From Octopus vulgaris (lineage: Eukaryota), in contig OX597819.1 in NCBI GenBank assembly GCA_951406725.2, positions 93,992,001 through 94,056,000 on the forward strand: a DNA stretch of 64,000 nt, written 5' to 3'. The position numbers and the translations under genes are program-made. Positions 29,467 to 52,601 of this stretch are shown here, in pieces. The first letter of the stretch is position 1, and every line of letters starts with the position of its first letter. Under the pieces are notes generated by a model. It was not told the DNA's origin and did no database searches. It saw only the letters and a list, made by a program, of their open reading frames with translations.

Positions 29467-29585
29467 CTCTTCCCATTTTTCTACATTCAATAACTTCATT
29501 TCCTCTCTCTCCTGCTTTCTCAGTTTCTCGTTTGCATTTTCTCTCTCTCCCTGTATATATACATATGTCTATATATGCATGTGTG

Positions 29586-29617
<32 letters not shown>

Positions 29618-30044
29618 CACATTTATATAAATGCACATGCATACATCATACATACAAAGGTTAACTTTGCCTGTCATCATTTTAGGGTCAATAAAATAGG
29701 TACTTATTGAACACTGGAGTTGGAACAACCGACTAGGCTTCTCCCTACAAATTTCAGGCCTTGTGCATATAGTAAAAGGACACATTCTTTAGTTTCCTTG
29801 TCCTCTACTTCCTCCTCTTTCTACATTATCAATCATCTGTTCCCTTTTCTTTCCTCATCTCACTGCATAAGTTTCTTCTTAAGCCTTGTCTTAAATATCA
29901 TCAGTCACATCATCATTATTGTCATCCCTCACCCATCTATTTCTACTCTTCCTTTTTCTTGTTTTTATCCTCTCCAAAAAATTTTGATTTCCATCAAGCT
30001 GCTATATTGCACTGTTGTGAAGTGCTGTCCTTATCCTCCTCCAC

Positions 30045-30072
30045 CTCATCATCATAATCGTCGTCGTCGTCC

Positions 30073-30120
<48 letters not shown>

Positions 30121-30122
30121 AT
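30045..30122 (+). repeat. (CAT)n/(CGT)n microsatellite just upstream of exon 12a
   Basis: A long tcatcatcat run ends ~65 nt before the acceptor. Confidence 0.95.
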
Positions 30123-30187
30123 GTTAATATAAATATTATTATTATCACCAATGTTTAACATGTTTCCTAATTTGTGTTTTGCTTCAG

Positions 30188-30329
30188 CATCCTTGGAATG
30201 AACTTATTTGGGTGTAAATTTTGTGGCCAGAAAAGGATAATGTCCACGCAGACGTACTCATATGCCCACCACAACTGTAGTCGAAAGAATTTCGACTCCT
30301 TACTCTGGTCAATCCTTACTGTGTTTCAG
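30188..30329 (+). CDS. Cav3: Cav3 (T-type Ca2+ channel alpha1) domain II S5-turret-P1 cassette exon, exon 12a type (tri-cysteine CxxC...C)
   Basis: Translates as (S)[47 protein letters not shown], matching the Cav3 domain II motif ILGMxLFGCKF...[16 protein letters not shown]. Acceptor is tttgtgttttgcttcAG (30186-87), branch-like CCTAAT at 30166-71, donor CAG|GTATCG. Length 142 nt = 1 + 47 codons. Confidence 0.93.
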
Positions 30330-30348
30330 GTATCGTATCTCAACCCAC

Positions 30349-30354
30349 TGCATG
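30349..30354 (+). promoter_or_regulatory. Candidate RBFOX-type splicing element TGCATG, 20 nt downstream of the exon 12a donor
   Basis: Exact hexamer in non-repetitive context. Function is inferred. Confidence 0.4.
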
Positions 30355-30859
30355 ATAGTATATACGTAGTTTACATTATCCTTGCCTTACTTTACTCACA
30401 ACTCAAACTTACAGAATCCATGTGTCAACACATCCATCCACACATATATATATGTAGATGTGTGTCTATATATCTATATGTATATATACACACACTTATA
30501 TACATATGTATATATATATATGTAAATATATATACTCACATATTTTTTTTTCAATTTTTTTTTCTGTTGCCTAGAATAGCTGCTACTATTGCTGAAATCT
30601 CTGGTATACATTGATGTCCCTACCTTTTCTTAGTCGTCTCTTAGTTCTAATTTAACCAACTAGCTTGTTTGCATAACTTAGTAATCTCTTATACTTACTA
30701 AGTAATAATTTAACTGCTTCCTCAAGAATCGAAAATCTATTTATCTATTAACTTGCCTTACCCACTTAACACAATTCTTTGAATATACATATAGAGACAT
30801 AGAGCAAATTTGTAATCTGGATCTAAAGCAGTACCTAAGCTCAAAAACATTTGCTTAAT

Positions 30860-30894
<35 letters not shown>

Positions 30895-31067
30895 TGTGTA
30901 CAGTGCTCAGGTGCACTACAACTCATCTAAAGGTACTCATCTGCAGTACCTTAGCTAATTTTTAATACTCAACAACATCAATTGTGGGGAAATAATGTCA
31001 GTGAAACAATTTAAATAAAATGTTTACATGGGTTTCAAGGATCTGCCAGAGTTAGTCTGCATTCTGA

Positions 31068-31157
<90 letters not shown>

Positions 31158-34100
31158 CTTGACATATTCCCAACTTAATAAGCAACTTAACTATCGACTG
31201 TCAATTATAATTAGTTTCACTTAAAGATTCAGTGATGTAAAGTCAAACAAGTAGTGAAAATATTTGTCTGTAAAGCATGAAAGGCCTGCAGTGGAATGCA
31301 AAATTAAAACTGTAGAGCAACATGTCTAATAAGCATACCAACATTTTTTTATTATTTTTTTTTACTTGTTTCACTCATTGGGCTGTGTCCATGCTGGAGC
31401 AATGTCTTCAAGGATTTTGAGTCAAACAGATCAACACTAATTTTTGTAATTTAAAATTATGACCAAGTATGATGGCATTTATTCTATCAGTATCTTTTGC
31501 CGAACTGTTAAGTTACTGGGAAGTAAGCAAACTAACACTGTCTGCTAATCAGTGCTTAAGGACAAACACAAGCGCAAACACTCAATGCATATACAATGAG
31601 CTCTCACACAGTCTCCATCTACAAAATCAACTCTCAAGGTTTTTGTTAGCTTGGTACTATAGTAGAAGACACTGCCATGCAATGGAACTGAACCTGAAAC
31701 CACATGATTGCAAAGCAAACTTCTTAACCATGCAGCCATGCTTGTGCCAAGCTATTAAAACTTCACATAGAATTGATTTTATATTTGTTTTTTTGAAAAG
31801 AAGATGGTTTTTTTTCTCTCGCTCTCTTCATTATAGAGAAAATATAAATAATGTCAGAGAAAAAGACAGTTTTCTTGTGTACTGTAAGTTTGCAACTGAC
31901 ATAAGCCTTATTCATTGCTCGTTTCTTAGAGCATACTTCATTCTTGAACTGGTCATTTCGGTAGGAACTTCGTTTTCTTCTTGCTAGAAGACAAATATCC
32001 CTTTGTATAAGATTCACTGTCTATAACAAGGTGTTTTTAGACTGATACTGTGCCACATATAAATGAAACAACTTCAACAGCAACAACAAGACTGAGTTTT
32101 GGGGTATTTTTGTTGGTTGTTTTTTCATTTATTTCCTTCTTCTTCTTCATCTTCTTCATAGAAAACTGATTTTCAATAGCATATCTGTCTGGCAGAAATC
32201 TAAGTAGACATCTCACGCTTTTATAGTCACTAACATGCCAGACATCTTTTTATTAACAAATATATGCATATGTGTGTGTGCACACATATATGTCTGTATA
32301 TGTGTCTCTATGTTTATAATTATATATAAATAGAGATTTTATCATTGTTATTTTTGGTGTTAGAGCGGTAGTGAAGGAAAAAATCAGTAGAGATTTAAAC
32401 ACCTGATATAGAATAATAAATTTGATACCACAGGATTCTGAGTTCAAATTCAGATAATTTCTATTGAAATCACCTACTAATTATTAATAATATACTGAAG
32501 TTGAGGCAGTTAAAAATCTGTTCATTTACCTCAAAATTTGGTTCTTGTATAGACAAATGAAGTTGTTGGTATTGTTGGTTTTGATTTTATAATTTCCTAA
32601 TTAAAACATAGAGTTGAACATTTTTCGAGATATAAATCAGATTTGAAAAACACTCCATTTGACAGATCTGCAATATCTCACTTGTTCATATTTATTCTTA
32701 TTTATATATATATGTATAGAGTACAGTGATGTAACAGAGCCTTTACTAATCAACTCCAAAAAAAATCCTGATTCACACTTGCAAGCACTTCATTTACATT
32801 ATAGACAGATATAGTAGAACATCAAATGAAAATGCGACTGAATTCAAATCCAACTAAGATAGGTTTTGTATTTCATTCTTCCAAAGTCAACAAAATAAAA
32901 TACCAGTCAAACACAGTGGTCAATGTGATCAAGTGGTTCCTTCCCACTAAATGTATAGTCTTGTGTCAATGTCAGAAATCACTATATATATAAAAGAATT
33001 AACAATACAAATTCCCATTTCTGTTCCTCTAAAGCTTATGTTAAGAAATGTAAATAGAAATAAATAGTAAATATTAAAAAAACATATGTAAATTTCTGTC
33101 ATAAATTCAACTTTCTGAAAACCATAATGCCTGTTTTAGTATTGCATAAAACTATGAGGTGAAGAGCTGTTAGAATCATTAGCATACTGGGCAAAGTGCT
33201 AAGTGGTATTTCAGCTGTCATTACATTCTGAGTTCAGTTTCAGCCCAGGTCAACTTTGCCTTTCATGCTTTCAGGGTCTGTAAAATAAGTACTATTTGAG
33301 CACCAGGGTTGATGTAAGCAATATCCCCTCCCCCGAAATTGCTGGCCTTGTGCCAAAATTTGAAACCAATATTGTATAAAGCTATGACAATTATAGAAGT
33401 AAGGTTTTTAGCATTCTAGTTCAGCAATCCAATTTAAATTCCTGATCCCAGCCATTTCAATTACTCTTAAACTCCTTTAAAATGATATGAGCATTCCGAA
33501 CATTCACACAATCCCAATCACGCATACAAAATTGAGAACGTCTGCTGCCTGCCCACGTAAATTGGTATCTTACAAAATTTACCAGTTTTTTAAAGTAGCT
33601 AGAATGCATGTCGTTAAGAATGGAATTGAATTTCTTTGATATTTATACCTATTTTTATATTACAGCATATTAACTGAGTTTGGTTTTCATTTCTTTGTTT
33701 TTTTTTGTTTTGTTTTTGTTTTTTTTTTTCACTTCTGTCTCCATAATAATGAATTTCATATCTTATAGTATAGAAAAATGAATTATTGTTTTGTAGTTGC
33801 AAACCCAGATTTTGATCACATGCTACCCACTCAACTTTGTCATTTTTATTATTTAATTACCATAAAAATTCCTCTCTTATGTCATTTCATAGTAGAACAT
33901 TAATATTTTTCTCATTCTTAATTTGTTTCAATAACACTTTATTTTTTTTCTACCATCTAAGCTACCAATATATCTTTTTATTCTACGAACAGTATTGATA
34001 CAACAACTTACATACTGACAAATAGACAAATATTTAGGCATTTATTTAGATATTTACGAACAGTTTTGAGATCACCAATACTATAGCTTTCCACTCTGAA

Positions 34101-35370
34101 TATATCTTATGCAATTTTATCCTTTCTGTTCTAAAAATTTATTCTATTATGGCAATTGTCTGTTTAAAGGTTTTCTCATGCAAAAATTATTCTATTATAT
34201 ATTTTCTCAGTTTAACTAATTCTTCAAAGTTTGACATGTATGTCAGACATAACTTGATTAACAACCAAATTTGTATTATAGGTGTATTACGGTGTGGCTA
34301 AAAAAAGCTGACCAATATTTAAGTAGTAGAATTAATCATATGTTTAATCAATAAAAGTGTAAATTCTTTTCAGCTTATGGTAACAAAAAAAAAATAATAA
34401 AATAATTAAATCATATCTTTAACTTCCAAAACTATTCTGTCATGGTCTGAATGCGTTCATCACACTTCTTTAGCATATATATTCCTAACCGTTTATCCTT
34501 GCCCCGAATCTCTTTCACAGAGAAAATTACACTTGTGCATTTATGTATTTGCATCTGTGTGTGTGTTTGCGTGTGCATGCATGTGCACTTGCACATGAAT
34601 GTATGTGTCTGTATACACTTTCTTTCTCTTTCTCTTTCTCTTTCTCTCTCTCACTCTCACACACAAGCACACACATACACACAAACGCACACATACACAT
34701 ATAAACACATGTAGATATGCATATCTTACTCTTTCCTCTCTCTCTCACTCTTTCTCTCTCTCTTCCTTCTTTTTAAGGTCTAATAGTGGATCCTATTGTA
34801 ATTTTTATATTTTTACTTCTTTCTTCTTACATCTCAATATCTGCCTCCACCCTCTCTCTCCACTATGTCTTCTCTCTTTCTCTCTCTCCCTTTCTCCCCT
34901 CCTCCCTCTCCTTCTTTCTCTCCCTTCCTCTTTCTCTACCTATCTATCTATCTCTTGTAATGCCGAAATTGAGTAAGTGTTATGCTAACAATTACAAGTA
35001 CTACCATTAGTTTTACAATCATTAATTATTGTCTTTATTTGTATAATATTTATTAGTCCTGCACTTATTAGTTTCTGGTTATTGCCTACCTACAGACCTT
35101 TGTCTTTGACATAGATATCTTTCTCTTTTCTTCTTTCTCTTATATATCTCCTTTCAGTCTGCTGATAAGTTTCATTAAACTCTGGCAAATACATCTAATC
35201 AGAAGCGTGAGATTCCTCACCATTTCTGCTTCACCTTACATAATAAATATCACTTGCAGCCTAATCTACTAATGAAATGTAAGCTTCCCTATCATAATAA
35301 GTATGCAATCTACTTTGATTCTAATTACCCTATGTCTAAAGTAAATTACCTCCCTTGCACATCAAGAAAC

Positions 35371-35597
35371 TTAACCCTTTGTCCTACAGATTACTCATTA
35401 ACTGGAATGCTTATTTATTCACGTTGTTTTGAGTTAATCGTCCATTATCTCGTAGCTTTGAGATTTTCATGATGTGATTGCTTCGTTTTAGATGGACATC
35501 GTAGGGTAGGTGTGAAAGGGTGCATCTGGCCGGTTGGAACATTAAACAGGTAGGATATTTAGGCTAATTGTGCCCAGTTTGAATACTAAAGGGTGAA
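35371..35597 (+). mobile_element. TTAA MITE copy
   Basis: ttaacccttt...aatactaaagggtgaa, with internal similarity to the other copies. Confidence 0.7.
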
Positions 35598-36823
35598 ACA
35601 CTCCCAACAAATACACCAGTACACCAGCTTAACATAAATTTTCTGTCCATTCCTACCATCACACAATGAGCAGCTTTCACAGCATTGTGAAGAAACACGA
35701 GTTATAGTGAAAACAACCCATCTCACTCTGTCAGTTATGATGGTGAGAGTTCCAGTTGATCCGATCAGTGGAACAGCCTGCTCGTGAAATTAACGTGCAA
35801 GTGTCTGAGTATGCCACAGACATGTGTACCTTTAATGTAGCTATCAGTGTGACACAGAGTGTAACAAGGCCGGTCCTTTAAAATACAGGTATTATTCATT
35901 TTTGCCAGTTGAGTGGACTGGAGCAATGTGAAATAAAATATCTTGCTTAAGGACACAATGTGTCACTGGGAATTGAACTCATGACCTTACAATCATGAGC
36001 CGAATACCCTAACCACTAAGCCGCGTGCCTTCACAATGACCCATCTAGGAAAGTAGTAACTCAGAATGAAGCTCTGTATGAAAAAGACAAGGACACATTC
36101 CAGGTGAGAAGAAAAGTAAATCTGAATAAAATTATGAGGGACACCAGTACAAATATAATCCATTATATATAATATATTATCAAAGCAATGTGCTTCAACC
36201 TGCTGCTCCTGGGTGAATCCACTTTCTGCTACTCTCAATAAATATAATTTCAAATTATTTACATTTAATTAGAATTCTGAGAAAGTTAAGTTAAGGAGCA
36301 ATGTTTCTTAACTTACAAGCGACTATTGCTAAGTAGAAGGTTTGGAGAATTAAGTACACAACTCATTGTAAATAGAGGCAATTAAAATTGCATACATAAA
36401 ACACAAAAACAACGTATTCATCAGTTTTGCATCTGTTGGTTGATTTTCCTCGATTATTTGTTTGTACAAAAGTGTAAGTGTCAGTGAGCTTATGATAGTG
36501 TCTATGTATGTGAACCTACGTAGGATATGTGTGTAACTGTGTGTCTGTGAGAGCATGTGTTTCCATACTTTGTTTTAGAAAATTAATTACAAGAAAATAC
36601 ATGAAATATTTGTTATAATCATAAATTCACAGATTAACCTCTTGAAGACTAAAATAGTTAAGAATAGCTAATAACAATCAATTAATACAACCCAAAACAT
36701 GCACTGTCAGTAGTGTGAGATAGGTAGGTATGCCAAATCATGAGATCTGGTCCAAATTAATTGCCAAATTGAATGCAATCTTGGTAAATTCTAATGCCAA
36801 TTATATATATATATATATATATA

Positions 36824-36856
<33 letters not shown>

Positions 36857-36868
36857 TGTATGTATGTT

Positions 36869-36916
<48 letters not shown>

Positions 36917-38985
36917 CACACACACACATATCTATATCTGCATGTGTTTGTATGTATATATGGATGTGTGTGTGTATATATATATATATATATAAGAGAG
37001 AGAGAGATATACATACTTACATACATACACACACACATACATAAATACATACATATATACATGCATGCATGCATACATACATGCATGCATGCATACATAC
37101 ATACATGCATGCATGCATGCATACATACATACATGTATGCATGCATACATATATATAACCCATGCCTGCATAGAAAATGGATGTTATTGATGATGATATG
37201 CATAAATGTGTGTGTGTGTGTGTGTGTGTTTATGTAATTTATTATCTGGAAGTTGAATGCCATTTAGTGTTGCCAACAAAACGTGTTCAATTAATATCTC
37301 TCTAAATTTCATTGGCCTTAAAATTCAAGCAACATTTTATGTTTATCTATAATCTCATCAACCTTTAACTCTATAGCATTAATGGAGTGCTAGGTTTAAA
37401 GTTCAAATGAAATAAGGCAAGATTTACCTATAACATATTGATTTCTTTCATGCTTAAACTGAATAATTGGCTAAGATAATGAGACTGAGATTTAGTTGTT
37501 TAGTTTTCCACATTTTTTTTTAATCCTTTTTTTTGTTTGTCTCAAACATTTGACTGCGGGCATGCTTTGGCACCACTTTAAAATGTTATAGTCAAACAAA
37601 TGAACCCTGTTACTCATTTTTTAAAGACTGGTACATATTCTATCAGTCTCTTTTGCCAAACTGCTAAGTTACAAGAAAATAAACAAATCAAGCAGTGGAA
37701 AGACAGGCACAAACACAAAGACACACACGTGTATACAATGGGCTTCTTTCAGTTTCCACCCACCATATCTACTCACAAGGCTTTAGTCAGCCTGTATCTA
37801 TAGTAGAAAACTTTTGCCCAAGGTCCCACACAGTGAGACTGAACCTGAAATCATGTGGTTGGGAAGCAAACTTCTTATCACCCACCCACTTTTAATTAGT
37901 ATAATTCCATGCCCATGATTTGCATTTGTCTTGGCTATTTACATTTGGCAGAGATGATGGAGCATTGTATAGAATGATTCACAATATTTCTTCCAATTCT
38001 CAGGCAATGAGCTGGTGGAATCGTTAGCATGCAAGGCAAAATATTTAGCAGCATTTTATCTGGTTTTACATTCTGAGTTCAAATCCTGCCGAGGTTGACT
38101 TTGCCTTCATTCTTTTGGAGTCAACAAAATAGGTACTAGTTGAGCACTGGGGTTGATGTAATTAACTTATCCCCTCATTTTTTGCTGGCCTTTCGGGGAG
38201 CAATAAAAAAAGTACTAATCTTGGATGGTGGATTAACAGAATGGTAAAAATATCACATCAGATGCTTTGCATTATTTTTCTGGCTCAATGAATTCTGAGT
38301 TCAGAATTCACCATGTTATACTTGGCCAGTAGACTTAATCCATCATCTTAGCAACTTTGATGCCTTTAGCAAAATCCACTCTGCGAAATAATTATTAAAA
38401 ATGCTTTATTTCTACAAATCACAGCAGATTACAATTTAAATTATAACATTTAAATACAAAGAAACAGAAAAAAGGTAAGATGAAAAAGAAAAAACAAGAA
38501 AAAAGAGGGTTAAAGCAGCAGAATATAAAAGTGGAGGGGGCAATGGGCCCCACACCCTTGAACAAATGGTGCACTCAGCTATGCCTCGTCATAATGGCCA
38601 CAATGGTGTTGCCATGGAGAATGACCAGCAACACTCACTGCAGCAGCCACTCCACCTTGCAGGGCTCATTTCTCAAGACATTAGTTATTATTTTTGTTGC
38701 TCTTCTTCTTCCTCCTCCTCCTCCATCTTCTCCTTCAGCCCCAAGTCAGCTCTGATCAAACAAATTTACAATCAAAGAACATAGCAAACATGTCTCTTGT
38801 ATATTAAGGACTACAATAGACAATGGTATTTCCATGCAGTAATAGTAAGTTTTGAAGAAGATTTAGTTGCTATTTCTGGTAGATCATGTAGACCCATAAA
38901 AGTAACCTCATTGGCTCAGCATGAAACTTTATGTTTTAAAAAAGTTTTCTTTTATTTTGTCATCTTATATTCGTAGAATATACAG

Positions 38986-39388
38986 GGGCAGGCATGGCTG
39001 TGTGGTAAGAAACTTGCTTCCCAACCACATGGTTCTAGTTTCAGTCCCACTGTATGGCACCTTGGGCAAGTGTCTTCTACTATAGCCTCAAGCCAACCAA
39101 AGCCTTGTGAGTGGATTTGGTACATGGAAACTGAAAGAAACCCACCATATATATGTGCATGTGTGTGTGTATGTGTTTTCCCTCCTCCCTTCCACTCCTT
39201 GTTTGTGTGTTTATGTCCCCATACATTAGCGGTTCAGTAAAAGAGATCAATGGAATAAGTAGCAAGCTTTAAAAAAAAAGTACTGGGGTGAATACATTCG
39301 ACTATAAATTCTTCAAAGTGGTGCCCCAGCATGGCCACAGTCTAATGACTGAAACAAGTAAAGGACAAAAGATAAAAGATAAAAGATA
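38986..39388 (+). mobile_element. tRNA-derived SINE family A, full length
   Basis: tRNA-like head, internal (TG/TA)n, tail actgaaacaagtaaaag(ataaaag)n. Confidence 0.9.
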
Positions 39389-39955
39389 TGCTTCATCAAA
39401 TATCTTCTAGACTTCTATTTCTCTGTAGCTTAGAAATTTATTCTTTGTAAACTAGTCAACTCGCCTCTGCATTTCTTATTATTAAGCTATATTTATTAGC
39501 GACTGTTTCCCCATGTTGTTTACATACCATTAAGAAAAACTCAATCAGTCATATCCAAAAACCAATGCCTAAAGAAAATAATTTAGGAGAGGACTCATTT
39601 GGTTTCCCTGCAAATATCCAGCCTTCAGACAGAGATGTAATGCAAGAGAATGGTAAATATAGATCACATTTGGTGTCAGAAAACAAATGGCATCATAGAG
39701 AATTGAGAAAATGCTCGAAGGACTTCAATTATAGATAACGGTAATTTTGTTAAATGAGGTTTATATATAGTACAGTGTACACAAGGATGACCTAGAAATA
39801 TTTGTGGCAAAACATCAGCTCATTCATTAATGACAAGTTTCCATAATTGGATGCATTTATTGTCATGTAGTTATGTTGCATATCTACACTGCATCTGTCC
39901 CAGTAGAGTGTGTGCATGGTGCATACATGTAGATAAGTGTATGTGTGTATGCATG

Positions 39956-39986
<31 letters not shown>

Positions 39987-40093
39987 TTAATAAAAAAAAA
40001 ATAGTGGAGAAAAAACACAAGAAAAAGCAACAAAGCAAGGACGTGGTAAATGCAATGTATTAATAAAACACTCAGGGAAGGAAAGAAAGGGTA

Positions 40094-40126
40094 TTTTACG
40101 TTTCAAGCAGAGCTCTTCTTCAGAAA
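40094..40126 (-). ncRNA. Minimal hammerhead ribozyme motif in a Penelope-like terminal repeat fragment
   Basis: The minus strand reads UUU-CUGAAGA-A-GAGC-UCU-GCUU-GAAAC-GUA-AAA. The core nucleotides are present and stem III is the palindrome ACGU, but stem I is weak. Confidence 0.5.
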
Positions 40127-40165
40127 CAGGTGACAAAGGGAAGTCCAAAAGAAAAGGAAGACAAA

Positions 40166-40580
40166 GGTGTAGGAGTGGCTGTGTGGTAAGTAGCTTGCTT
40201 ACGAACTACATGGCTCCAGGTTCAGTCCCACTGCGTGGCACCTTGGGCAAGTGTCTTCTACTATAGCCTTGGGTCAACCAAAGCCTTGTGGGTGGATTTG
40301 GTAGACGGAAACTGAAAGAAAGCCATCGTATATATGTATGTATATATATGTATGTGTATGTGTATACGTTTGTGTGTCTGTGTTTGTCCCCCCAACATCG
40401 CTTGACAACCAATGCTGGTGTGTTTACATCCCCTTCACTTAGTGAGTCGGCAAAAAGAGACCAATAGAATAAGTACTAGGCTTACAAAGAATAAGTCCTG
40501 GGGTTAATTTGTTTGACTAAAGGTGGTGCTCCAGCATGGCCACAGTCAAATGACTGAGACAAGTGAAAGAGTAAAAGAAA
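40166..40580 (+). mobile_element. tRNA-derived SINE family A, full length, inserted in a Penelope-like fragment
   Basis: Same structure as the 38986 and 50506 copies. Confidence 0.9.
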
Positions 40581-40810
40581 GAGAGCTAAAAATCACCAAC
40601 AATCCAAATGTAGTTACATTTTGGAATGTATATATATGTATATATATATATATATAGTCACAATGAGAATATTTAAACCTCTTATAGGGATATTTTATTC
40701 AAATTACACTGGTTTAATACATTTTAAATAGGTATTTCTTCAATGAATATATTGTATAAAATATCATAAAATATCAAATATCATTATTGAGTTAGAAAAC
40801 AGGGAGATCT

Positions 40811-41524
40811 AATGGATAGAAATTAATTTATTAATTAATTAACATATTCACCTGCAATTGTTTTATTTCACAAACAAAATTAAAATTACAAAACATATAT
40901 AGATATATAATTTTGCATTTTAAATACCTTGTATGGAAAAGCATCAGGGTGTACAAAGGACAATACAAGGATTACATTAGGATACGTTTGGAACACTCAG
41001 AATATATAGACATGCTTATTATGTGTGTATGTATATGTGTGTGTGTGTGTGTATGTGTGTGTGCATGCATGTATTAAAATTATTTTTATTTTTAATTCAA
41101 TAACAATAATCATGAATGATGGGTTATAGTATATAAGGGTAAAGCAATATAATGAAGAAAGTGAAAGTGAAACAAATTTTATTTCACTTTTACTTTCATT
41201 TTATTACTTAACTCTTATATACTTATAACCCATTATTCAAGATTATTGTTATTGGATTAAAAATAAGAGTAATGATTTTAACAAATGTGCACACACACAT
41301 ACATATATACACAGATAATAAACATGTCTATATATTCTGAATGTTCCAAATGTGTCTTAATGTAATCCTTGTTTTGCCCTTTGTACAACTTGAAGCTTTT
41401 CCATACGAGGTATTTAAAATGCAAAATTAAATATTTATCTGTTTTGTAATTTTAATTTTGTTTGTGAAATAAAACAATTGCAGGTGAATATGTTAATTAA
41501 TTAATAAATTAATTTGTATACATT
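40811..41524. repeat. ~710-bp imperfect palindrome (foldback), centre near 41175
   Basis: Left arm aattaatttattaattaattaacatattcacctgcaattgttttatttcacaaacaaaattaaaattacaaaac is the reverse complement of 41441-41514. Pairing continues inward to aaagtgaaa...tttcacttt. Confidence 0.93.
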
Positions 41525-41582
41525 CGATATTTTATGTGTGTGTGTGTGTATGTGCGTGTATATGTGTGTTTATAAATATATA

Positions 41583-42545
41583 TTGGATCATCCCATAACT
41601 AATGCATTTTTTATACTTCTTTTATTTTTCAAAATTAAGAAGGGCGGTGCCCCAGCATGGCCTCAGCCGGATGGCTGAAACAAGTAAAAGAGTAAAAGAG
41701 TATACACAAAGTTTTTTTTCAATCTAAGATATACTCTTCTTCATTTTTTAGAATGCTCTTCCATCTATTTGATACACTTGCAAGGCCCCTCTTCCAAAAT
41801 TCACTTATCAGTGACAAAAAATTCTCCTCCACTACTGTTCTGACCTTGTCTACAGAATTCATATTTTTTCCATCCAAATGATTTTGAAGACTGTGGAATA
41901 AATGATAATCAGATGGGGCATGTCCAGTGCATATGGTGGGTGGGACATCGTTTCCCATTCAAACTGCTCCAGCGTTTGGAATTTCATCATCACTGTATGT
42001 GGTTAAGCATTATCCTGATGGAAGAATACCTTTCATCTTGAAACCAAAGATTGTCATTTTTCTTTTAGTACTGACTTGAATGACTGATTGAATGACCAAA
42101 TCCAAACTTGTCTGCTAGTTCCTCAAGAGTTACGATCGGATTTTGTTCTGTCAGGACATCCATATCGAGATCTACAGATCTTCCAGGATGAGGCTTATCA
42201 TCTAAGCTGTAGCTTCCAGCTCAGAATTTCTGGAACAACCGTTGACACTGGCTTATGCTTATTGTCCGATCCCATTATACTGCATTAATATTCCTCGCAC
42301 TTTCCATTGCGTTGTTGCCTTTAATGAACTCATATGCTGAATATGCTCCTTTGTCGCTTCTATTATAGCTTTGAGAAAATAACAGTTAAAATCAAATAGC
42401 ACTCTTCAAAACTTACACTTAGAATGAGGACAAGGTAAAATTACTACCAACTTTTATAAAAAGTTGATGCAGGTAGTTTATCCCTTCACCCCCGACTTTT
42501 AATTAATGCATTGAAAAAAAATGCATTATTTATGGGATGACCCAG
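41583..42545 (-). mobile_element. Defective mariner (DD34D-type) transposon with terminal inverted repeats (TIRs)
   Basis: TIRs are ttggatcatcccataactaatgcatttttt and aaaaaaatgcattatttatgggatgacccag, with flanking TA. Minus-strand motifs are FFHQDNA* and APSDYHLFHSLQNHL...FWKRGL...RW...EYILD. A SINE 3' fragment is nested at ~41643-41700. Confidence 0.88.
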
Positions 42546-42609
42546 TATATACACACATTATATATATGTGAGTGTGTATGTAAGTATGTATGTATGCATA
42601 TGTATATGC

Positions 42610-42643
<34 letters not shown>

Positions 42644-42702
42644 GGTGAGAGATAGTGGATAAAGAGTTAAAAACCTAGTATTAATTACAGGGATATGTGA
42701 AG

Positions 42703-42758
<56 letters not shown>

Positions 42759-42763
42759 CTATA

Positions 42764-43537
42764 CAGGGTGTGGTGAATAAAATGCCCTCTAAATTATGCA
42801 AAAATGGAAATAACAATGATATTCCATTTTAACAAATATATATATACTAAAATTACATAAAAATATCTTGAAATACTAAAGAGTAAATTTATTCAGTAAA
42901 TTCGCCATTGGCTTCAACCATGGCCTCTAGACAACTTCAGAATCTCCTGCAACACTTCTGGATGGTCTCCATGTTTAAGTTGGTGAATGCTGCCATAATC
43001 CTTGCCTTCAGTTCATCTTTGGTGTTACAAGGAGTTCTGTTCGTTTCTCACTCAGCTGTGCCCCACACATAATAATCAAAGGGGTTGCAGTCTGAGGAGT
43101 TAGGTGGCCAGATGTTAGGGGTGGTGTGGTCGCAGAAATTGTCTGACAGCCATCTCTGGGTTCTCCTTCTTCTGTGGAATGGTGCATAGTCCTGTTGCTA
43201 GACATAGGGTCTTCTGGCAGCCACCCTCTTGACCTAGAATAGTACTACCTCCTTCATTTTTATCACTCTCAGTGCACGCCCTCAGATTACACTGTCCTCA
43301 GATTAATACCCAAACACTCTGAAATTTTTATATTGGAGCTTCTGGCATGAATACCAAGCAGTACAGCATTTCATTTCCAAATTTCTGGTAGAGTGAATTG
43401 TGCCATATAGTTGCTTTTCTCACAGATGGTGCCCAACTGACCCTACTATATTGTGTAGTTGACAAAATCAAAAACAAACTATGCGCATGCATTAAATTAA
43501 AAATATAAAATGGCAACAATTTACCCATTGCACCTTG
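42764..43537 (-). mobile_element. Defective Tc1/mariner-superfamily transposon, maT (DD37D) type
   Basis: The minus strand reads *QQD-YAPFH...IWPPNSSDCNPF-DYYVWG, with 37 residues between the last two catalytic Asp, and C-terminal CRRF*SCLEAMVEANGE. Degenerate TIRs cagggtg / caccttg are flanked by TA. Confidence 0.85.
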
Positions 43538-43942
43538 TATATATCATCATCATCATCGTTTAACGTCCACCTCCCATACTGGCATTGGTTGGACAGTTTG
43601 TCTGAAGCTGGCCAGGCAGAAGACTGCACCAGACTTCTGTGTCCGTTTGGCACATTTTTTACAACTGGATACTCTTCCTATCACCAAACACCCCGAAGAG
43701 TGGACTGAGAGTGTGATGAGTACTTTTACATGTCACCAGCACAGGTGCCTTTTGCATGACACAGAGGCTCGTTTATGTGCCAGGGCTATGTGACACCAGT
43801 ATTTACCACAACTGCAATTTTGCTCAGCTTGATGGATCTTCTTCTGAAGCACGGCATAATGCCAAAGGTCTTAGTCATTGCCTCCATGAGTCCCAACATT
43901 CAAAAGATGTTCTTTATGTGCCTGTTACATAAATATATATAG

Positions 43943-44013
<71 letters not shown>

Positions 44014-44109
44014 CAGACAGGTAGATAGATAGATAGACAGACAGGTAGATAGATAGATAGATAGATACATACATACATACATACATACATACATACATAC
44101 ATACATACA

Positions 44110-44193
<84 letters not shown>

Positions 44194-44990
44194 TAAAATA
44201 GTAGTGAGAGCCAAATGTTTGTGGTAAAAACAGTTGGTTAGCCTCTAGAATAGACAGAGCATATATATAGATAACACAAGAGGAGATAATAAGCAACCAA
44301 TAAAGTTTATTAACCACTGTAGCCAATGCACTTGGTCCCATCTCAAAATTAGGTATATATTCCAATGAGATGACTACTACTATACAACTCCAGTATATAG
44401 CAACAAAAGTTGTTAATTATGCAATTAAGTCCATGAATAAAAGGAATGGAATGGGCAGTGATGTACTACCCTTGTTTCAAAGGAAGCACTGAACGATTGT
44501 TCTGTAACTTTAAGGTGCTATCTAATTTCTCATAGTTCTTCCTCATCAGGTACTTTCCACCTGTCAGTTAAAACTTCTTTGCCATTATGAATTCACCAAG
44601 AGAAACTGGAAAAAAAATTTATACATTTCAACGGTGACAAGGGGAGTAGAAATAGAAATAGAAATTGGTCAAGTAGTCTTCTACAAATAACTTAACTGAG
44701 GCAGAATCTGGTTTCATTTTGAGAAAGTCAGTTCCTTATCTGTATAAATGGATTTATGGGGTGGTTCCTAATAGTTCTTAGATTATTAATATTTTCATTA
44801 TATTGTAATAAAGCTGAAAAAAGGTGCATTAGTAGAAACGTCAGGATGGGATGTTAATTACTCAAAGAAGATAATGCGAGGAGGGAGAGGGAAGAGGAGA
44901 AAGATGAAGCAATAAAAAAGTGACATATACACTTACATATAAATATATATGTACATATAATATACACACATCTAAATACACATACATATA

Positions 44991-45041
<51 letters not shown>

Positions 45042-45136
45042 TATATTATGTTATGTTATATTATATTATATTAGAGGAAGAGTCAAAACCAAGGCAGAAC
45101 GAGTATCACAAGTCATTTAGAATAATTCAATTTGGA

Positions 45137-45214
45137 GTCTTACAGCTGTTTCTGGGATAATCCAAGTGGTAAGTTAGCATGTGTCCATGCACTGGGTATT
45201 CCATCATCAGAGAC
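45137..45214 (-). ncRNA. Type I hammerhead ribozyme, Penelope-like-element minimal type, intact core
   Basis: The minus strand reads GUCU-CUGAUGA-[UGGAAUA CCCAGUG...CACUUGG AU UAUCCCA]-GAAAC-AGCU-GUA-AGAC. Stem I is GUCU/AGAC, stem II is long, stem III is the palindrome ACAGCUGU, and the cleavage triplet is GUA. Confidence 0.75.
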
Positions 45215-45446
45215 AAGATATGAATGTTTTAGACAGAGGGAAATTTAGTTTATAAGGAATAAAATTCACAGTTTATAAGGAATAAAACAGAAGAATAAAG
45301 GAGTAAAATAGAGGAATAAAGAGTAAAAGTAGTTAGAAGAATATAGGCAGGAAAATAATGTTCATAACTTAGGAAGAAAATCAGCAAAATTTTGTTTGAC
45401 CCATGCAAGAAAGGAAAAATGGATAGAAAAACGATAGTGATGGTGA

Positions 45447-45488
<42 letters not shown>

Positions 45489-47291
45489 AATGTAATATAT
45501 GGGTTAATAGAATTATGGGGCTATTATGATATGCAAGTATATATATGTATATATATATATATATATACATATGTGTGTGTGTGTGTATGCATTTATTTAT
45601 ACATAGATTCATATCTATATCTGTATATATTATGCTATCCATATATTTTCAGAAATAACCATTCTAAGATATCTTTCTCAACATTTCTTAATATTTGTAT
45701 TTTTCCTTTTTTAACCATCAGAATTACTTGTGTAACTATTTTTTCTTGACTTTGGGGAAAGTAAGCAGCTTTATTGGTAACCATAATAATTACATTTTAC
45801 TCATTAGTAATTGGCCTCTATAATTACGGTTTCTTCATAAGAAGTGATTGTTATAATTACATAGAAACTATGAGCAGTCTGAAGTAGTAAGGTGACGTAG
45901 ATAGAACAGTAATGTTCTTCAAGAAAAAAATTAATTCATCGACTAATTACTCTTTTAGTTTTCATTCATAATGCTTGGAGGTAATATGTATTTGACTGCT
46001 CTGTTCACTTTTCACTTGTATATTTGTTGTTTTAGTACTGAAGTTTTTGCCTCATAAATATGGTTAAAGAAAAATACCCCAGGGGAGTGTTCTGCTTATT
46101 AATTACTAATATAATAGGGTCTCACATATGAAGTAATATAGACAGTCAAAAAAACTTTAGTAAATTGAGGTTATCAAAGCAATTTGTAAACAAAAATTTC
46201 TTCTAAAAATGCTTAGTATATAGAAGCAACAAACAGGGGAGATAATTCCTATAAGCTCAGTTGCATGAAATTTTTAAAGAGTATAGATAATGTTGATTAG
46301 AGTGGATTTGACCTATGAAGACAACTAGTGAAAACTGGAGGTGATTCTTTATGATAGTAAGAAGAGAAGTATTTTGTAAGTAATATATTGCAGCTTGTAT
46401 TTTATTTATAATATTGATGGCAGCAGTTGTTCCGTAGTTGCTTCTGCTGTGTTGTCCAAGTAAAACCTGATTCACAGATCCAACACACCACATATATAAA
46501 TATTCCTTAATTGAGATTGTGTCTAGCTGAGCTTCATGTTCAGAGATGATCTATTTTCTTCTCATTCAAACAGGATTTCAACCAGAACCATTCCACCTTA
46601 TTTTTTTTTTTACTAGTATAATATAAACAGGACTGATTTTTATTTCCATGATGTTCATTTTTAAGACGGTATATTTTCTGTTTTGACCAAGTGATTAATT
46701 GATTTCTGTACCTAAACACAACAGCCATTATGCTTAAAGAAATTCAGATTAATTGTGTTTATCTATTTTTTGTGTAGTAAACATAGAATGTATAATACAT
46801 ACTGAATTTGGAAAACTTTAGTGTATAGAAAACTTCTTTACTCTTCTTGAACTTGTGGAAAGTAAAAAATGTATAATTGATGTGATAATATGTAAGGACA
46901 GCACATGAAATTTGGTTTAGAAAAATGTAAGGGTTCCAAAACAACTAAAACCATCGAGTTTAATTTAGTTTGAACATATTTTACTTGTTTACCATTCATA
47001 AGAATTATTTAATACATAATTTTAACAGTTGAAGACGATAAATATTTATTTATATCCATATATCCTGACAATCATACTGATACATACACACACATGTGCA
47101 CTCACACACACACATATACACATGCTGTCATGAATTGATTTCACAAACCAAAGTGCATGTTTATTTTTTCTTCAATCCCAAAATAATCTATCATATATTG
47201 AGAATATCAATTTATATCTACTTTCTTAGTTGATTAAACTAAATAAAATACATGACTATTTCTTGATCTATGCTGCAGCCCTAAATCTCCC

Positions 47292-47356
<65 letters not shown>

Positions 47357-50300
47357 GTGTGTATTTGTGTGTCTGTGTATGTATATGTACATGCGCATGT
47401 GTGTGTGTGTGTGTATGTGTGTGTGTGTACATATATAAATTGTGGCAGTATGACTCCCCAGACACAACAAAATTTGATTCAACACACAAATTCTCATAAA
47501 GAATCTTGCAGGCCAGATACAGAAACGATGTAAATTAATCATCAACCCATATTTTTTTCTTTCTCTCTGTAACATAGGCTGAAGTACAAGTGGTAAGTTT
47601 CTGGGAAACTGAGCCTACAAAATAGGTTTAGTTCCTAGAAGTAGTTTCCCTTTCTATTTTTAACTTGTTCCACAAATGCCTTTGGGATAGGGATAAATGT
47701 CATAAATCTGATCACCAATCTTCTGAAATCAATAGGAATGACAATTCATTTATTTGTATCTATGATCATGGAAAGTTAAATAGTTGACTCAATTAAACTT
47801 TATGTGGGGGACAAATAATACATCTATGTTCTATTTTCTCCTATGATAAACTCCCAGTTTGGGAGCGAAAAACAAACCATCATCCTTCAAAAAAAAATTA
47901 TATCTACATTACTCTGAAATGCTCTGAAGTGTGGCAATGTCTTCTGATCTTGGCAGCGCTTTTGGCAAAGTTTAATTTCTTAATTTCTTTTGTTGCATTT
48001 ATCAACTAACTTTTCTTGAAAAACAAAAAAAAATTAATAATAATAAAATAAAATAGGAAAACATTTATTTTTCAGAAATTTAATTAACTTTTTTTTCCTT
48101 TCAATTTTGCATTAATTTTTTTTTTCACCCTCCACCCATTTCTTGTAATGCATGTCTTAGAATATTAGTAATGCAAATTGTTTTAGCTTTCCAATACAGG
48201 CCGCCAGGAAGTACTATTTATTTGCATCTACTTCAGTAGTAGCATGCACCATTGCATTGTTCTTGAACCACATTAACTTTTCCAATGCTGTACCAAATGT
48301 TTATTTTCCCAAACATCCCCTGCACCACCACCACCACCATCACCACCACTGCTACCTGAAATCCCATTGTTTCTTTATATTTTAACCATTATCAATTCTC
48401 TAATGAGAATTTCAGTAGGGGAAACAGTTCAAATATCTTTAATGTTTCAACATTTATTTTACCTTTAGAATATGAATTATGAAATATATAATCTTCTATC
48501 ATTCTAAAACAATTAATATAGCTATTTTTGTCATTTTAAAAGCAATTTTTTTTATTCTCTTATAACATAGATAGGAATGTTCTGCAACTTCATTTTCTTG
48601 TATACAAAATTCTAGGGAAATATCTTACAAATGGATACTATAGTGTTTTTCATGATAGAACAATGCCACTTTTCAACCAAGATGATAAGGACTAACAGAA
48701 TAATATTTCTAAAATGACTAAAGAATTATTCCCAGAAATTTCTGCTGCATGAAACAAATAATAAAACGGGCAGTAATATACTTGATGTAGTAAAAACAAA
48801 TTATTAATTAAAATTATTACACTCTAAATGATATTAGAAACCTGCAATATCTTAATTATAAATTCTGAACAAGAAAAAGCGAGGTAGACAATCTCAGAAT
48901 ATAAATTAATCAAAATTAATTAAATGTAAAATGCATGTACAATGTAGTAGGGAGTGAGTCTGTTGGTGTTAACATGACAGCCCTAGACATGTTTTAACCT
49001 TGTAAGACTTGGTATCTTTCTTGGTTAGTGTTCATATACAGTAATTATTCCATGATAATACTTCAATTAACATTTGTAAGTCAATTATTGTGTTGTTTAA
49101 AGTTATTTTAGATAATTCATTATTCTTCAAAATTTTTTCCATGTTCACATTTTCAAGTATAAAATTAACTAGAATATTTATAACTTCACCTTGTTTTCTG
49201 CCAAGCTATATTTTACTCTTAATTTCAAGAGATATTGATTTTTTCTTTTGAGTTGACTTACAACTCAGTTAACCTGATATTTATCTGTTGTAGTTAAGTG
49301 ATTAAAAAGAATAAGGATGCATTCGAATTTTGCTGCAAGCATTGCAGTGCCTCACTATACTGAGCATGTTATGCAATGTAACTAAACCTACAAACATAAA
49401 AGGTAATCATTATAGTTTGGCACATATATTAATGAATAAGACTTCACTGAGTTTTTTCTCAAATATATATGCATAAGAGAAGTTACACAGATATATGAAT
49501 GCCTTTGTTTTGTCTTTCTAAGAATATTAAAATTTATCTATGTATATGTATGTATGTTTGTATGTATATATATATATAAACATATACACATATTGTATAT
49601 ATATATTTGCTCACCTAGGCCTGAGCTGCTAGGTTTGAGTGACGAACCTACAAAACTTTAAGTTGCATGAAACCAACTTTAAAAACTAATATATATACTC
49701 CTAGTATATATATATGTATACTCCCATCCATGCCAGCATGGAAGGCAGATGTTAAACGATGATGATGATATATATATATATAATTTCAGCTAAAACAATG
49801 CTGCAAAAGCACATTGTAACCAGTGATGTGTAACATCTGACAGCCTGGTCAGTCACATGATCACATGATATATTTATAATTTCAGTAGGTAAAAAATGAA
49901 GTAGGCTCACATTCTTCTTTCTGTGAGGTGATAATCCCAAAAAAACTATTTCATTTTGCTCAAGGAACTTAACCTTCTCAAGCCTAGTTTTCTATTTTTT
50001 ATTTTTTAATTGGAATAGAAGGCAATACCCTTGTCCCATGACAGGGTCAATGAAACTGGTGGGAAGGAGAGAGTAGTTTATCCACAAACTAGGTGTCTCT
50101 TGCAACTGGGTGGACTCTGCTAAAGTCACCAAAGTTGCCACATTGTGGAGTTAAACTAGGTAATGAATTAAATAAACCCTCCTTATAGGCCATGATGGGG
50201 TTTGAACTCAAGATACATAGAGTGTAGAAACAAATACTGCAAGGCTATATCCTTATAGTTCTGCCAATCTCCTACACTGGATTGGTTGATTTTTTATTGA

Positions 50301-50505
50301 TCCTAAGAAGATAAAATCTCAGTTGACATTGATAAAATTTGAACTCAAGGTGCAAAGAGTCAGAACAAATTCTATGAGTCGTTCTACCAGACACTCTAAT
50401 GACTCAGCCATCTCACCAGCAAACACATAATTGTTGTTTCTTCAGAGCTTTCATTTAGTCAAAGGGTAAGACTACAGAGTTCGTGAAATATGAGTGACAG
50501 TGAGT

Positions 50506-50907
50506 GGTGCAGGAGTGGCTGTGTGGTAAGAAGCTTACATTCCAGTCACATGGTTCAAGGTTCAATCCCACTGCGTGGCACCTTGGGCAAATGTCTTTTA
50601 CTATAGCCTCAGGCCAACCAAAGCCTTGTGAGTGGATTTGGTAGATGGAAACTGAATGAAGCCCATCGTATATGTGTGTGTCTATATGTATGTGTGTTTG
50701 TGTGTCTGTGTTTGTTCTCCCACCATTACTTGACAGCCGAAGTTGGTGTGTTTACATCCCCGTAACTTAGCAGTTCACCAAAAGAGACTGATTGAATAAG
50801 TGCTATGCTTACAAAGAATAAATCCTGGGGTTGATTTGTTCGACTAAAGACGATGCTCCTGGATGGCTGCAGTCAAATGACTGAAACAAATAAAAGAGTA
50901 AAAGAGT
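50506..50907 (+). mobile_element. tRNA-derived SINE family A, full length
   Basis: Same structure, with a possible target duplication gagtggtg on both sides. Confidence 0.9.
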
Positions 50908-52036
50908 GGTGAAGGGTCAAGTGACAGTTGATTTATATTTCATTTTCAACACATGACTTTAATCAACCTTAATTTATGAGCATTAAGAAAGAATGAATGA
51001 ATAGTTTTATATCACAACATAATTTAAATTATGTAATTGACAAATCATTCAACAGCTATAAATAACATGCATGCAATATTTTCGTAGACATGAAACTAGT
51101 TATGTCTTGTATATCTCTTTAACCCTTTCATGGATATATTTCTAATGAAATACACTATTTTTCAATTAATTTCGAAAATAATTAAGAATTTGGGTGTATT
51201 TAGTAAAATAAATAACTTTTTCACTATATTTCACTATATTTAGAATGTAACAAAAGAGTATTATATAAAAATATGATGGAAGATTTTTAAATTAAAATTT
51301 TATAAGGTCTGTATGAAGGAACCAGAGGCTGATTCCATCTTACAGAAGCTTAAAGGATTAGTATCAATAGGTTTAGATTATTAGAATATAAGAGAGAGAA
51401 TAATGTTTAACCCAACATTTTTTTTAAAGAATTCTAATTTGTTATTGTCCATGCACCAGTGTCCCTATGCTAAAATATAATATTAACTTGACAGAATTTA
51501 AAAGTAAAATCTCTTGATTTGTGGTACATTATGTTACAGCAGTGAAAAGGTTAATGAGTAGATTTAATTGTGCAGCTAAATATCTTGCCTTGCAACTGCA
51601 TTTTGTCCTAAGTTTCCAGCAATATTATCACAGTCAACAACTCACAAGATCATCATCATCATCATCATCATCATCAACAACAACATCTATATTGACATTG
51701 CTTTTGCTAGTATAGTTCTGTTGCTTACTGGCATCAATCTGGGAGGCAATGTTTTTTTCTGTACCTTGCTCTCTTTATTGTCATCTGCAATAATTCCATG
51801 CGCTTTATCCAGCATCATTATCAATCATCATCATCATCATTATCATTAAGTAGCAGCTGTTACAAGAACTGCAGCGCATTAATGCATCAGCCAAGATTTT
51901 ATTTTATATAATATGTATATATATGTATATAAGTGTATAATTGTATATACATATATATTTATATATATTTATATGTATGTATATATATGTATATATATGT
52001 ATATGTATATACATATGTATATATATATATACATAC

Positions 52037-52069
<33 letters not shown>

Positions 52070-52273
52070 CGTATATATATTTACATACACACACACATAT
52101 ATATATGTATTCTCCATGTTACCAGTTTTATGTAATTACTAATTCTCTCTTCAACCTCACCTGCCATTGTAGTTGTTGTCTAACAATGTAGTCAGAAGAT
52201 ATGTAACCATTAATACTAGAACTGTTCTTTACCCAAGTTTGCCAACTGTGTCACTTTATTTTATCTCCCCACC

Positions 52274-52279
52274 TGCATG
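52274..52279 (+). promoter_or_regulatory. Candidate RBFOX-type element TGCATG inside the exon 12b 3' splice site (a second one at 52642-52647)
   Basis: accTGCATGtAG: the hexamer occupies positions -9 to -4 of the acceptor. Function is inferred. Confidence 0.45.
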
Positions 52280-52282
52280 TAG

Positions 52283-52601
52283 TGTTTTAGGCATGTGTTT
52301 TTTCGGCGGCAAATTCTGTGAAGGTCATCAGCAGAACGATGAACCCATTTACACCATCAACACCACTACTAGTACCACTGCTATTCCAATCTTCACCACC
52401 AATAACAACAACAACAATATTACCACAACTGTCACCAACATTTTTAATTCTACTACTAATTCTACTAGTACTACTACTACTACTACCACTACTACATTCC
52501 CATCACTACAAAATTGGAAACCTGCTACCAGCAATCTTAGTTGTCACTGCAAAAGAGCTAACTTTGATTCCCTTCTCTGGGCATTTATAACAACCTTTCA
52601 G
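52283..52601 (+). CDS. Cav3: Cav3 domain II S5-turret-P1 cassette exon, exon 12b type, with expanded Thr/Asn-rich turret
   Basis: Translates as (S)VLGMCFFGGKFCEGHQQ...SNLSCHCKRANFDSLLWAFITTFQ. GGKFC and CxC just before the P1 helix are 12b hallmarks. Acceptor is tgcatgtAG (52281-82), donor CAG|GTAACC. Length 319 nt = 1 + 106 codons with no stops, and the splice phases match the 12a exon. Confidence 0.9.

What the first reader, a model, noticed from the sequence alone, without database searches (positions are those of the whole stretch)
30188..52601. Mutually exclusive 12a/12b ion-selectivity switch spread over a 22-kb intron
Seen: two paralogous exons share splice phases (start phase 2, end phase 0) and have lengths 142 and 319 nt, both 1 mod 3. 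Including both, or neither, shifts the frame. They are separated by 21,953 nt (30330-52282). Known: in Lymnaea, 12a gives a largely Na+-carrying T-type channel used in heart, while 12b is more Ca2+-selective. Inference: the switch is retained in this animal. Steric branch-point exclusion is impossible at this distance, so exclusivity must come from nonsense-mediated decay (NMD), splicing factors or long-range RNA pairing.
Basis: partly seen in the sequence, partly recalled or inferred. Interest (0 to 1): 0.7.

Follow-up and report, generated by a model that had tools for sequence, protein, structure and literature searches.

The report
Octopus calcium channel's remodelled alternative exon
An octopus T-type calcium-channel gene carries the known either-or exon pair that in snails switches the pore between sodium and calcium; the 22-kb gap is ordinary for this huge gene, but the calcium-type exon is twice the usual length and has two conserved cysteines replaced by a threonine-rich stretch, so it likely makes an unusual channel or is decaying.

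Summary
Observation confirmed. Window 30188-30329 (142 nt) and 52283-52601 (319 nt) are exons 12a and 12b of one Cav3 T-type channel gene. Exon 11 ends 1.5 kb before the window, exon 13 starts 52 kb past 12b, and no other Cav3 exon lies between. Either exon alone keeps the frame; both or neither give a premature stop. The Lys (12a) / Ala (12b) switch residue of Lymnaea is kept. The pair is well known in protostomes, and 22 kb is unremarkable: neighbouring introns are 31.7 and 52.2 kb. Steric, U12 and splice-site-proximal pairing mechanisms found no support; splice-site choice backed by NMD is inferred. All 5 full-length Octopus models seen use 12a. Contigs from 2 of 7 runs laid (two related organisms) join 12b to exon 13; one is 19 nt short, out of frame. 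Whether 12b gives a working Ca-preferring channel is open. The scan noted only a similar pair in an L-type gene elsewhere.

The parts
30188..30329 (+). Cav3 exon 12a (47 aa, domain II end of S5, L5 turret, P1 helix); CxxC...C cysteine pattern
30285..30287 (+). Lys codon of 12a at the position that neutralises the domain II outer-pore Asp in Lymnaea (Na-permeable form)
   Evidence: sequence; role from PMC9694082 passages
30330..52282 (+). 21,953-nt GT-AG intron between 12a and 12b, rich in microsatellites and dispersed repeats
52283..52601 (+). Cav3 exon 12b (106 aa); C...CxC only, central CxC absent; extra Cys at residue 5
   Evidence: join to exon 13 seen in contigs of X3 and X10
52320..52538 (+). 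73-codon Thr/Asn-rich loop (25 Thr, 13 Asn) in place of the central CxC segment; built on ACT/AAC/ACC microsatellite-like DNA; N-X-S/T sequons at residues 26, 45, 55, 59, 84
52557..52559 (+). Ala codon of 12b at the Lys/Ala switch position (Ca-preferring form in Lymnaea)
   Evidence: sequence; role from PMC9694082 passages
52319..52321 (+). TGA read in frame only if 12a is spliced to 12b; 280 nt before the next junction, so a predicted NMD trigger
1..30187 (+). Distal part of the 31,729-nt intron from exon 11 (which ends 1,542 nt before window position 0, at G000:C6 about 93,990,458) to 12a
52602..64000 (+). Start of the 52,186-nt intron from 12b to exon 13 (G000:C6:94,096,788)

Best explanation
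These are exons 12a and 12b of the single octopus Cav3 T-type channel gene; either alone keeps the reading frame and both or neither give a premature stop, so exclusivity likely rests on regulated splice-site choice with nonsense-mediated decay removing mistakes, and 12b is likely a minor but working exon whose turret has been remodelled. Shown: exon anatomy, single gene, frame outcomes, Lys in 12a and Ala in 12b, the 12b-to-13 join in contigs of two related organisms, 11-12a-13 in assembled and annotated cephalopod proteins. Inferred from Lymnaea: 12a gives a slow, mainly Na-carrying channel (the Lys neutralises the domain II outer-pore Asp) and is the main form. Inferred: 12b gives a more Ca-preferring channel because it keeps the Ala, but with one intra-turret disulfide and the usual voltage-sensor tether cysteine gone and a long, probably glycosylated and disordered loop over the pore; by analogy with the Lymnaea cysteine mutants it would pass somewhat more Na and be more sensitive to Zn and Ni than snail 12b.
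For: Exons 11 and 13 unique and flanking; upstream exons collinear on one strand; no third exon-12 copy in 124 kb (HMM hits beyond 12a and 12b have E >= 0.69). Frame outcomes; same outcome, a stop 124-181 nt before the junction, in 14 of 14 metagenome loci with both exons. 12b donor matches U1 at 7 of 9 positions, 12a at 6 of 9. 12b stays open over 106 codons although about half is repeat-like. X3 (organism B) and X10 (organism D) leave 12b at the donor and go on with exon-13 letters (X3: 31 of 32 letters match). X6 (organism B) differs by an in-frame 6-nt gap. All 9 listed substitutions in organism D lie in the insert, none in the 100 nt of conserved ends (chance about 0.012 if uniform; low-complexity DNA also mutates faster). 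Lymnaea 12b with 4 cysteines mutated still expressed, and its Na fold-increase rose only from about 2.3 to 3.8 versus about 15 for 12a (PMC7382465 passages).
Against: 5 of 5 full-length Octopus protein models and 3 of 3 full-length assembled relatives in the cuttlefish cluster use 12a; no 12b-bearing cephalopod protein was found. Only 2 of 7 distinct runs laid show the join; 4 of 7 show contigs running into the intron (including both runs of organism A, the best match to the window) and 1 of 7 shows no contig on the exon. The X10 contig is 19 nt shorter than the window exon (3+1+15), which would break the frame. 6 of 30 core positions of 12b hold residues seen in none of 34 other 12b exons, against 0 of 30 for 12a, which fits relaxed selection. 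The 11-to-12b join was not seen. NMD and splicing-factor control were not tested.
Confidence: 0.58

Rival explanations
1. 12b is decaying in octopuses: 12a is effectively constitutive, 12b is spliced in only as low-level leak, and microsatellite growth plus loss of cysteines reflect relaxed selection. The ion switch would then be lost or on its way out.
For: No 12b in 5 of 5 Octopus and 3 of 3 cuttlefish-cluster full-length proteins; six unprecedented core residues including the otherwise invariant V of the P1 helix end; central CxC lost; 6 of 9 substitutions in the insert are non-synonymous; one spliced contig out of frame; both spliced contigs are of low depth (5.3). Some protostomes keep only 12a (PMC4436565 passage).
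Against: Open frame and canonical splice sites in the window; in-frame 6-nt gap in organism B; exact use of the donor in two organisms; no listed substitution in the conserved ends between the window and organism D; switch Ala, three turret cysteines and the NFD motif kept.
Confidence: 0.3
2. Exclusivity is enforced by long-range RNA pairing (docking and selector elements, or inverted dispersed repeats that loop out one exon), with NMD secondary.
For: Inverted repeat pairs exist that bracket 12a (25), 12b (43) or both (61) in the repeat-masked region. An 11-bp stem between 30233-30243 and 30373-30383 could enclose the 12a donor.
Against: Best reverse-complement matches of the eight exon and splice-flank windows score 24.3-28.2 bits, not above the median 28.2 of 60 random intronic windows. 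Folding z-scores are 0.52 and 1.62, no better than shuffles. The inverted pairs are ordinary dispersed repeats kilobases from the splice sites. No cross-species covariation test was possible, so short conserved pairings are not excluded.
Confidence: 0.1
3. U2/U12 spliceosome incompatibility: the 12a donor (begins GTATC, like a minor-intron donor) cannot be joined to the 12b acceptor.
For: 12a donor shares its first five bases with the U12 consensus (consensus recalled); exon 13 acceptor has a 6 of 9 match to a U12 branch motif.
Against: The donor departs from the consensus at +6 and +8. Among the 47 distinct exon sets from 80 metagenome loci the 12a donors vary freely and none reads as the U12 consensus (judged by eye). 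A 6 of 9 branch match also occurs before 12a.
Confidence: 0.02
4. The two exons belong to two Cav3 gene copies, or exclusion is steric through a distant branch point.
For: None.
Against: One match each for exons 11 and 13, none between them; AG-free zone before 12b is 43 nt, so the branch point cannot lie near the 12a donor 22 kb away (about 50-nt threshold from PMC7969005 passages).
Confidence: 0.01

Closest known systems
Lymnaea stagnalis LCav3 exons 12a/12b (PMC7382465, PMC9694082, PMC4436565, PMC10120453; passages and named sections read)
   Same: Same position (domain II S5-P1), same order, same phases, CxxC...C and Lys in 12a, Ala in 12b, EEDD filter with the domain II ED pair in the Octopus proteins, single gene.
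   Different: 12b is 106 aa instead of 50, has C...CxC instead of C...CxC...CxC, a 73-aa Thr/Asn loop with five sequons, and six unusual core residues. 12a is 47 aa instead of 39. Function and tissue use are untested here.
Other molluscan 12b exons (Haliotis, Magallana, Mytilus, Mya, Mercenaria, Argopecten, Pomacea, Physella, Biomphalaria, Elysia)
   Same: GGxFC start, CxC-x-R-A-N-F end, neutral switch residue.
   Different: All are 50-53 aa with the central CxC; none has a low-complexity insert.
70-aa 12b exons of rotifer-like loci
   Same: Longer than the published 48-55 aa range; same phase and frame logic.
   Different: Six cysteines and a Lys at the switch site; ordered-looking sequence; introns of 121-332 nt.
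Mutually exclusive exons enforced by frame incongruity and NMD (listed as one of four mechanisms in PMC7969005, passage)
   Same: Both and neither give premature stops more than 55 nt before a junction.
   Different: NMD not tested here; the factor that picks the exon is unknown.

Membership tests
Cav3 T-type channel gene | Domain II S5-P1 sequence closest to Cav3, EEDD selectivity filter | tested here: met
   exon 13 reads TQEDWN; four filter motifs in Octopus proteins with identical 12a
Protostome Cav3 12a/12b pair | Two paralogous exons between unique exons 11 and 13 of one gene, 12a first | tested here: met
Protostome Cav3 12a/12b pair | Equal phases, lengths 1 mod 3, both or neither out of frame | tested here: met
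   14 of 14 comparison loci alike
Protostome Cav3 12a/12b pair | Each exon used alone in mRNA | tested here: inconclusive
   11-12a-13 in cephalopod proteins; 12b-13 join in 2 of 7 runs, from related organisms; 11-12b join and absence of double inclusion not seen
Exon 12a type | Tri-cysteine CxxC...C, short loop, Lys at the switch site | tested here: met
   Cys 9, 12, 30; Lys 33; 47 aa, one above the published 38-46 but within the 36-54 aa seen here
Canonical exon 12b type | Penta-cysteine C...CxC...CxC | tested here: not met
   Cys at 5, 12, 87, 89 only; central CxC in 34 of 34 others
Canonical exon 12b type | Length 48-55 aa (PMC7382465 section 6) | tested here: not met
   106 aa; 49-70 aa in 34 others
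Canonical molluscan exon 12b type | Neutral residue at the switch site, Gly in place of the first 12a cysteine | tested here: met
   Ala 92; GGKFC
Na/Ca selectivity switch | 12a Na-permeable, 12b Ca-preferring in recordings; 12a heart-specific | not testable with these tools
   needs expression and tissue RNA data
Steric (distant branch point) mutually exclusive exons | Branch point within about 50 nt of the upstream donor, long AG-free zone | tested here: not met
   intron 21,953 nt, AG-free zone 43 nt
U2/U12-incompatible exon pairs | Conserved minor-intron donor and branch site | tested here: not met
Docking/selector RNA-pairing exon clusters | Conserved complementary intronic elements with covariation | tested here: inconclusive
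   no flank complementarity above control; conservation could not be tested

The most novel reading that the evidence does not exclude
Octopuses have rebuilt the calcium-type turret of their T-type channel: a microsatellite expansion replaced a cysteine-stapled loop conserved across protostomes with a 73-residue mucin-like, glycosylated stalk and freed (or re-routed through the new S5 cysteine) the disulfide tether to the domain I voltage sensor, giving a third class of Cav3 with its own selectivity, kinetics and metal or peptide block, expressed in a restricted cell type and missing from current gene models.
Probability: 0.3. Interest if true: 0.65.

Novelty: new variant of a known kind. Interest (0 to 1): 0.38.

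Why it matters
The exon pair and its 22-kb spacing are not news. The remodelled 12b is a natural experiment on the Lymnaea model: it keeps the switch Ala but lacks the central cysteine pair and likely the voltage-sensor tether, so recording it would separate the roles of the single residue and the disulfide frame in Na/Ca choice and gating speed. If it is instead decaying, octopuses would depend on a Na-carrying T-type channel alone, which bears on how T-type currents in octopus neurons and hearts are read. Either way the Octopus gene models seen here lack this exon.

Tried and rejected
No RNA holder listed on record: all runs are 'RNA?' guesses or unlabelled, so only the exon join itself is used as evidence. 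Run X4 showed no contig on 12b although listed as holding 73% of its words (a filter leaves records out, so no conclusion). Protein search with 12b against longer proteins: 0 of 690 candidates passed (weak evidence). Whole-gene search with a 2584-aa protein gave no answer; an 825-aa one worked. The genome search with the 12a protein returned 12a only and missed 12b, so it cannot exclude diverged copies elsewhere. AlphaFold of 12b alone: mean pLDDT 44.5, uninformative. U12, steric and splice-flank pairing ideas: not supported. The original Lymnaea paper (Senatore 2014, JBC) is not held and the supplement of PMC9694082 could not be read; either could show a cephalopod 12b. No complex prediction was run. 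Earlier findings near this place: none.

Full report
Observation. 12a spans 30188-30329 (142 nt) and 12b 52283-52601 (319 nt); both have AG/GT borders, start in phase 2, end in phase 0 and are 1 mod 3; the intron between is 21,953 nt. 12a matches domain II S5-P1 of human Cav3.1-3.3 structures and invertebrate Cav3 proteins. Its 47 residues are identical in the 5 full-length Cav3 models of three Octopus species, so the animal is an octopus or very close to one.

One gene. Exon 11 and exon 13 each match once in the genome, on the same strand, ending 31,729 nt before 12a and starting 52,186 nt after 12b. tblastn and exon-12 HMMs over 124 kb (window plus six neighbouring stretches) find no other Cav3 exon and no third exon-12 copy. 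Upstream exons are collinear over 430 kb, with gaps between matches of up to about 230 kb. The 12a-12b intron is the shortest of the three introns around the pair, so 22 kb is just the scale of this gene.

Frame logic. Spliced in silico, 11+12a+13 and 11+12b+13 are open; both exons together stop 280 nt before the 12b/13 junction, and skipping both stops 68 nt before the exon 13 junction. Both are NMD substrates by the 50-55-nt rule (own knowledge). Of 80 metagenome loci with an exon-12 relative, 14 hold both exons (9 distinct by the start of 12b); in 14 of 14 both exons are 1 mod 3 and double inclusion stops 124-181 nt before the junction, with introns of 121-3,604 nt. The safeguard is therefore old and independent of intron length.

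Mechanism of exclusion. Steric exclusion needs a branch point within about 50 nt of the upstream donor (PMC7969005, passages); the AG-free zone before 12b is 43 nt in a 22-kb intron, so it is out. The 12a donor begins GTATC, but it departs from the minor-intron consensus (recalled) at +6 and +8 and 12a donors vary freely among the 47 distinct exon sets, so U2/U12 incompatibility is unsupported. Eight exon and splice-flank windows have best reverse-complement matches of 24.3-28.2 bits against a median of 28.2 for 60 random intronic windows, and neither exon region folds better than shuffles. Inverted dispersed repeats bracket each exon (25, 43 and 61 pairs) as expected in a repeat-rich genome. 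Short conserved pairings cannot be excluded without other cephalopod genomes. The remaining explanation, inferred and untested, is regulated choice between two ordinary U2 exons with NMD clearing errors.

Selectivity residues. In Lymnaea one residue decides the ion preference: Lys in 12a, Ala in 12b; swapping them swaps the Na fold-increase between about 15 and about 2.3 (PMC9694082, passages and section 17). The window has Lys at 30285-30287 and Ala at 52557-52559. 12a also has the CxxC...C pattern and no core residue unseen among 150 other 12a sequences (one of the 150 is a 98-aa fused gene model; the sequence identical to the window's was removed; sequences that failed the pattern were not counted).

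What is unusual. Published 12b exons are 48-55 aa with C...CxC...CxC (PMC7382465 section 6). The window's 12b is 106 aa, has cysteines only at 5, 12, 87 and 89, and replaces the middle with 73 residues holding 25 Thr and 13 Asn; the exon has five N-X-S/T sequons. At the DNA level nt 70-213 resemble ACT/AAC/ACC microsatellites found across the genome. Six of 30 core positions carry residues seen in none of the 34. In the Lymnaea models the cysteine that tethers 12b to the domain I voltage sensor lies inside the two intra-turret bridges (PMC9694082 and PMC10120453 passages); by inference it and one bridge partner are the pair lost here, while the partner loop keeps its three cysteines in Octopus proteins. 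Lymnaea 12b with four cysteines mutated still conducts, with Na fold-increase 3.8 instead of 2.3, and cysteine mutants show much stronger Zn and Ni block (PMC7382465 passages), which is the basis for my functional prediction.

Is 12b used? For: contigs of X3 (organism B) and X10 (organism D) leave 12b at its donor and continue with exon-13 letters that lie 52 kb away in the genome (X3 matches 31 of 32 letters); X6 has an in-frame 6-nt gap; the 9 listed differences in organism D all fall in the insert. Against: of 7 distinct runs laid (7 of the 24 listed), 2 show the join, 4 run into the intron (X2 and X11 of organism A, X6, X9) and 1 shows nothing on the exon; the 11-12b join was not displayed; the X10 contig (depth 5.3) is 19 nt shorter than the window exon, out of frame, which is either an error or a broken allele; 5 of 5 Octopus models and 3 of 3 full-length assembled proteins of the cuttlefish cluster use 12a. 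I put a working minor 12b at about 0.6 and decay at about 0.3.

Literature. Searches: Cav3 + exon 12a + exon 12b, 6 papers; cephalopod + Cav3 + T-type + splic, 9 papers, none on this by title or abstract start; octopus + T-type calcium channel + heart + isoform, 11 papers, likewise. The words octopus and cephalopod do not occur in the main text of PMC7382465, PMC9694082 or PMC10120453, octopus not in PMC4436565, and neither in the supplement of PMC7382465 as machine-read text. The 2014 JBC paper and the supplement of PMC9694082 could not be seen and figures are not held, so a cephalopod 12b may be in print. The scan's own index holds nothing near this place and one note on a similar duplicated exon in an L-type channel of another genome, not tested here.

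Verdict. A known mutually exclusive pair in a gene with large introns; the long spacing is ordinary. The remodelled, apparently unannotated 12b makes it a new variant of a known kind. Interest 0.38; 0.65 if the remodelled exon proves to make a distinct working channel (probability about 0.3).

Noticed in passing
window 52425-52439 and 52485-52499 (run X10): The spliced contig of organism D is 19 nt shorter than the window's 12b (gaps of 3, 1 and 15 nt), which would shift the frame; assembly error or broken allele.
   Followed up: partly
window 52296-52298: 12b has a cysteine at residue 5 (end of S5), four residues before the position where 12a carries its voltage-sensor tether cysteine; none of 34 other 12b exons has it. 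It might replace the lost tether (speculation).
   Followed up: no
window 30023-30185: AG-free zone of 163 nt before the 12a acceptor, largely due to a CAT microsatellite; could shift branch-point use.
   Followed up: partly
window 30233-30243 with 30373-30383: An 11-bp perfect stem that would enclose the 12a donor; the region as a whole folds no better than shuffles (z 0.52).
   Followed up: partly
window 23806-23959, 38995-39143, 40170-40320, 50511-50664: Copies of a dispersed repeat of about 150 nt, 85-91% alike, in both orientations across the three introns; they form inverted pairs around each exon.
   Followed up: partly
L018, L020, L036, L037, L047 (12a-12b introns): Rotifer-like loci have 121-140-nt introns with AG-free zones of 77-126 nt reaching to within 14-50 nt of the 12a donor, so steric exclusion by a distant branch point may operate there; their 12b is 70 aa with six cysteines and a Lys at the switch site.
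   Followed up: partly
L021, L027, L032, L040 (exon 12a): 12a exons of 52-54 aa, longer than the published 38-46 aa range.
   Followed up: no
L061 (12b donor), L080 (12a donor): GC instead of GT donors after exon 12 in two arthropod-like loci.
   Followed up: no
G000:C6:93561494-93791188 (outside the window): About 230 kb between the first two matched Cav3 exons; the gene spans well over 500 kb.
   Followed up: no
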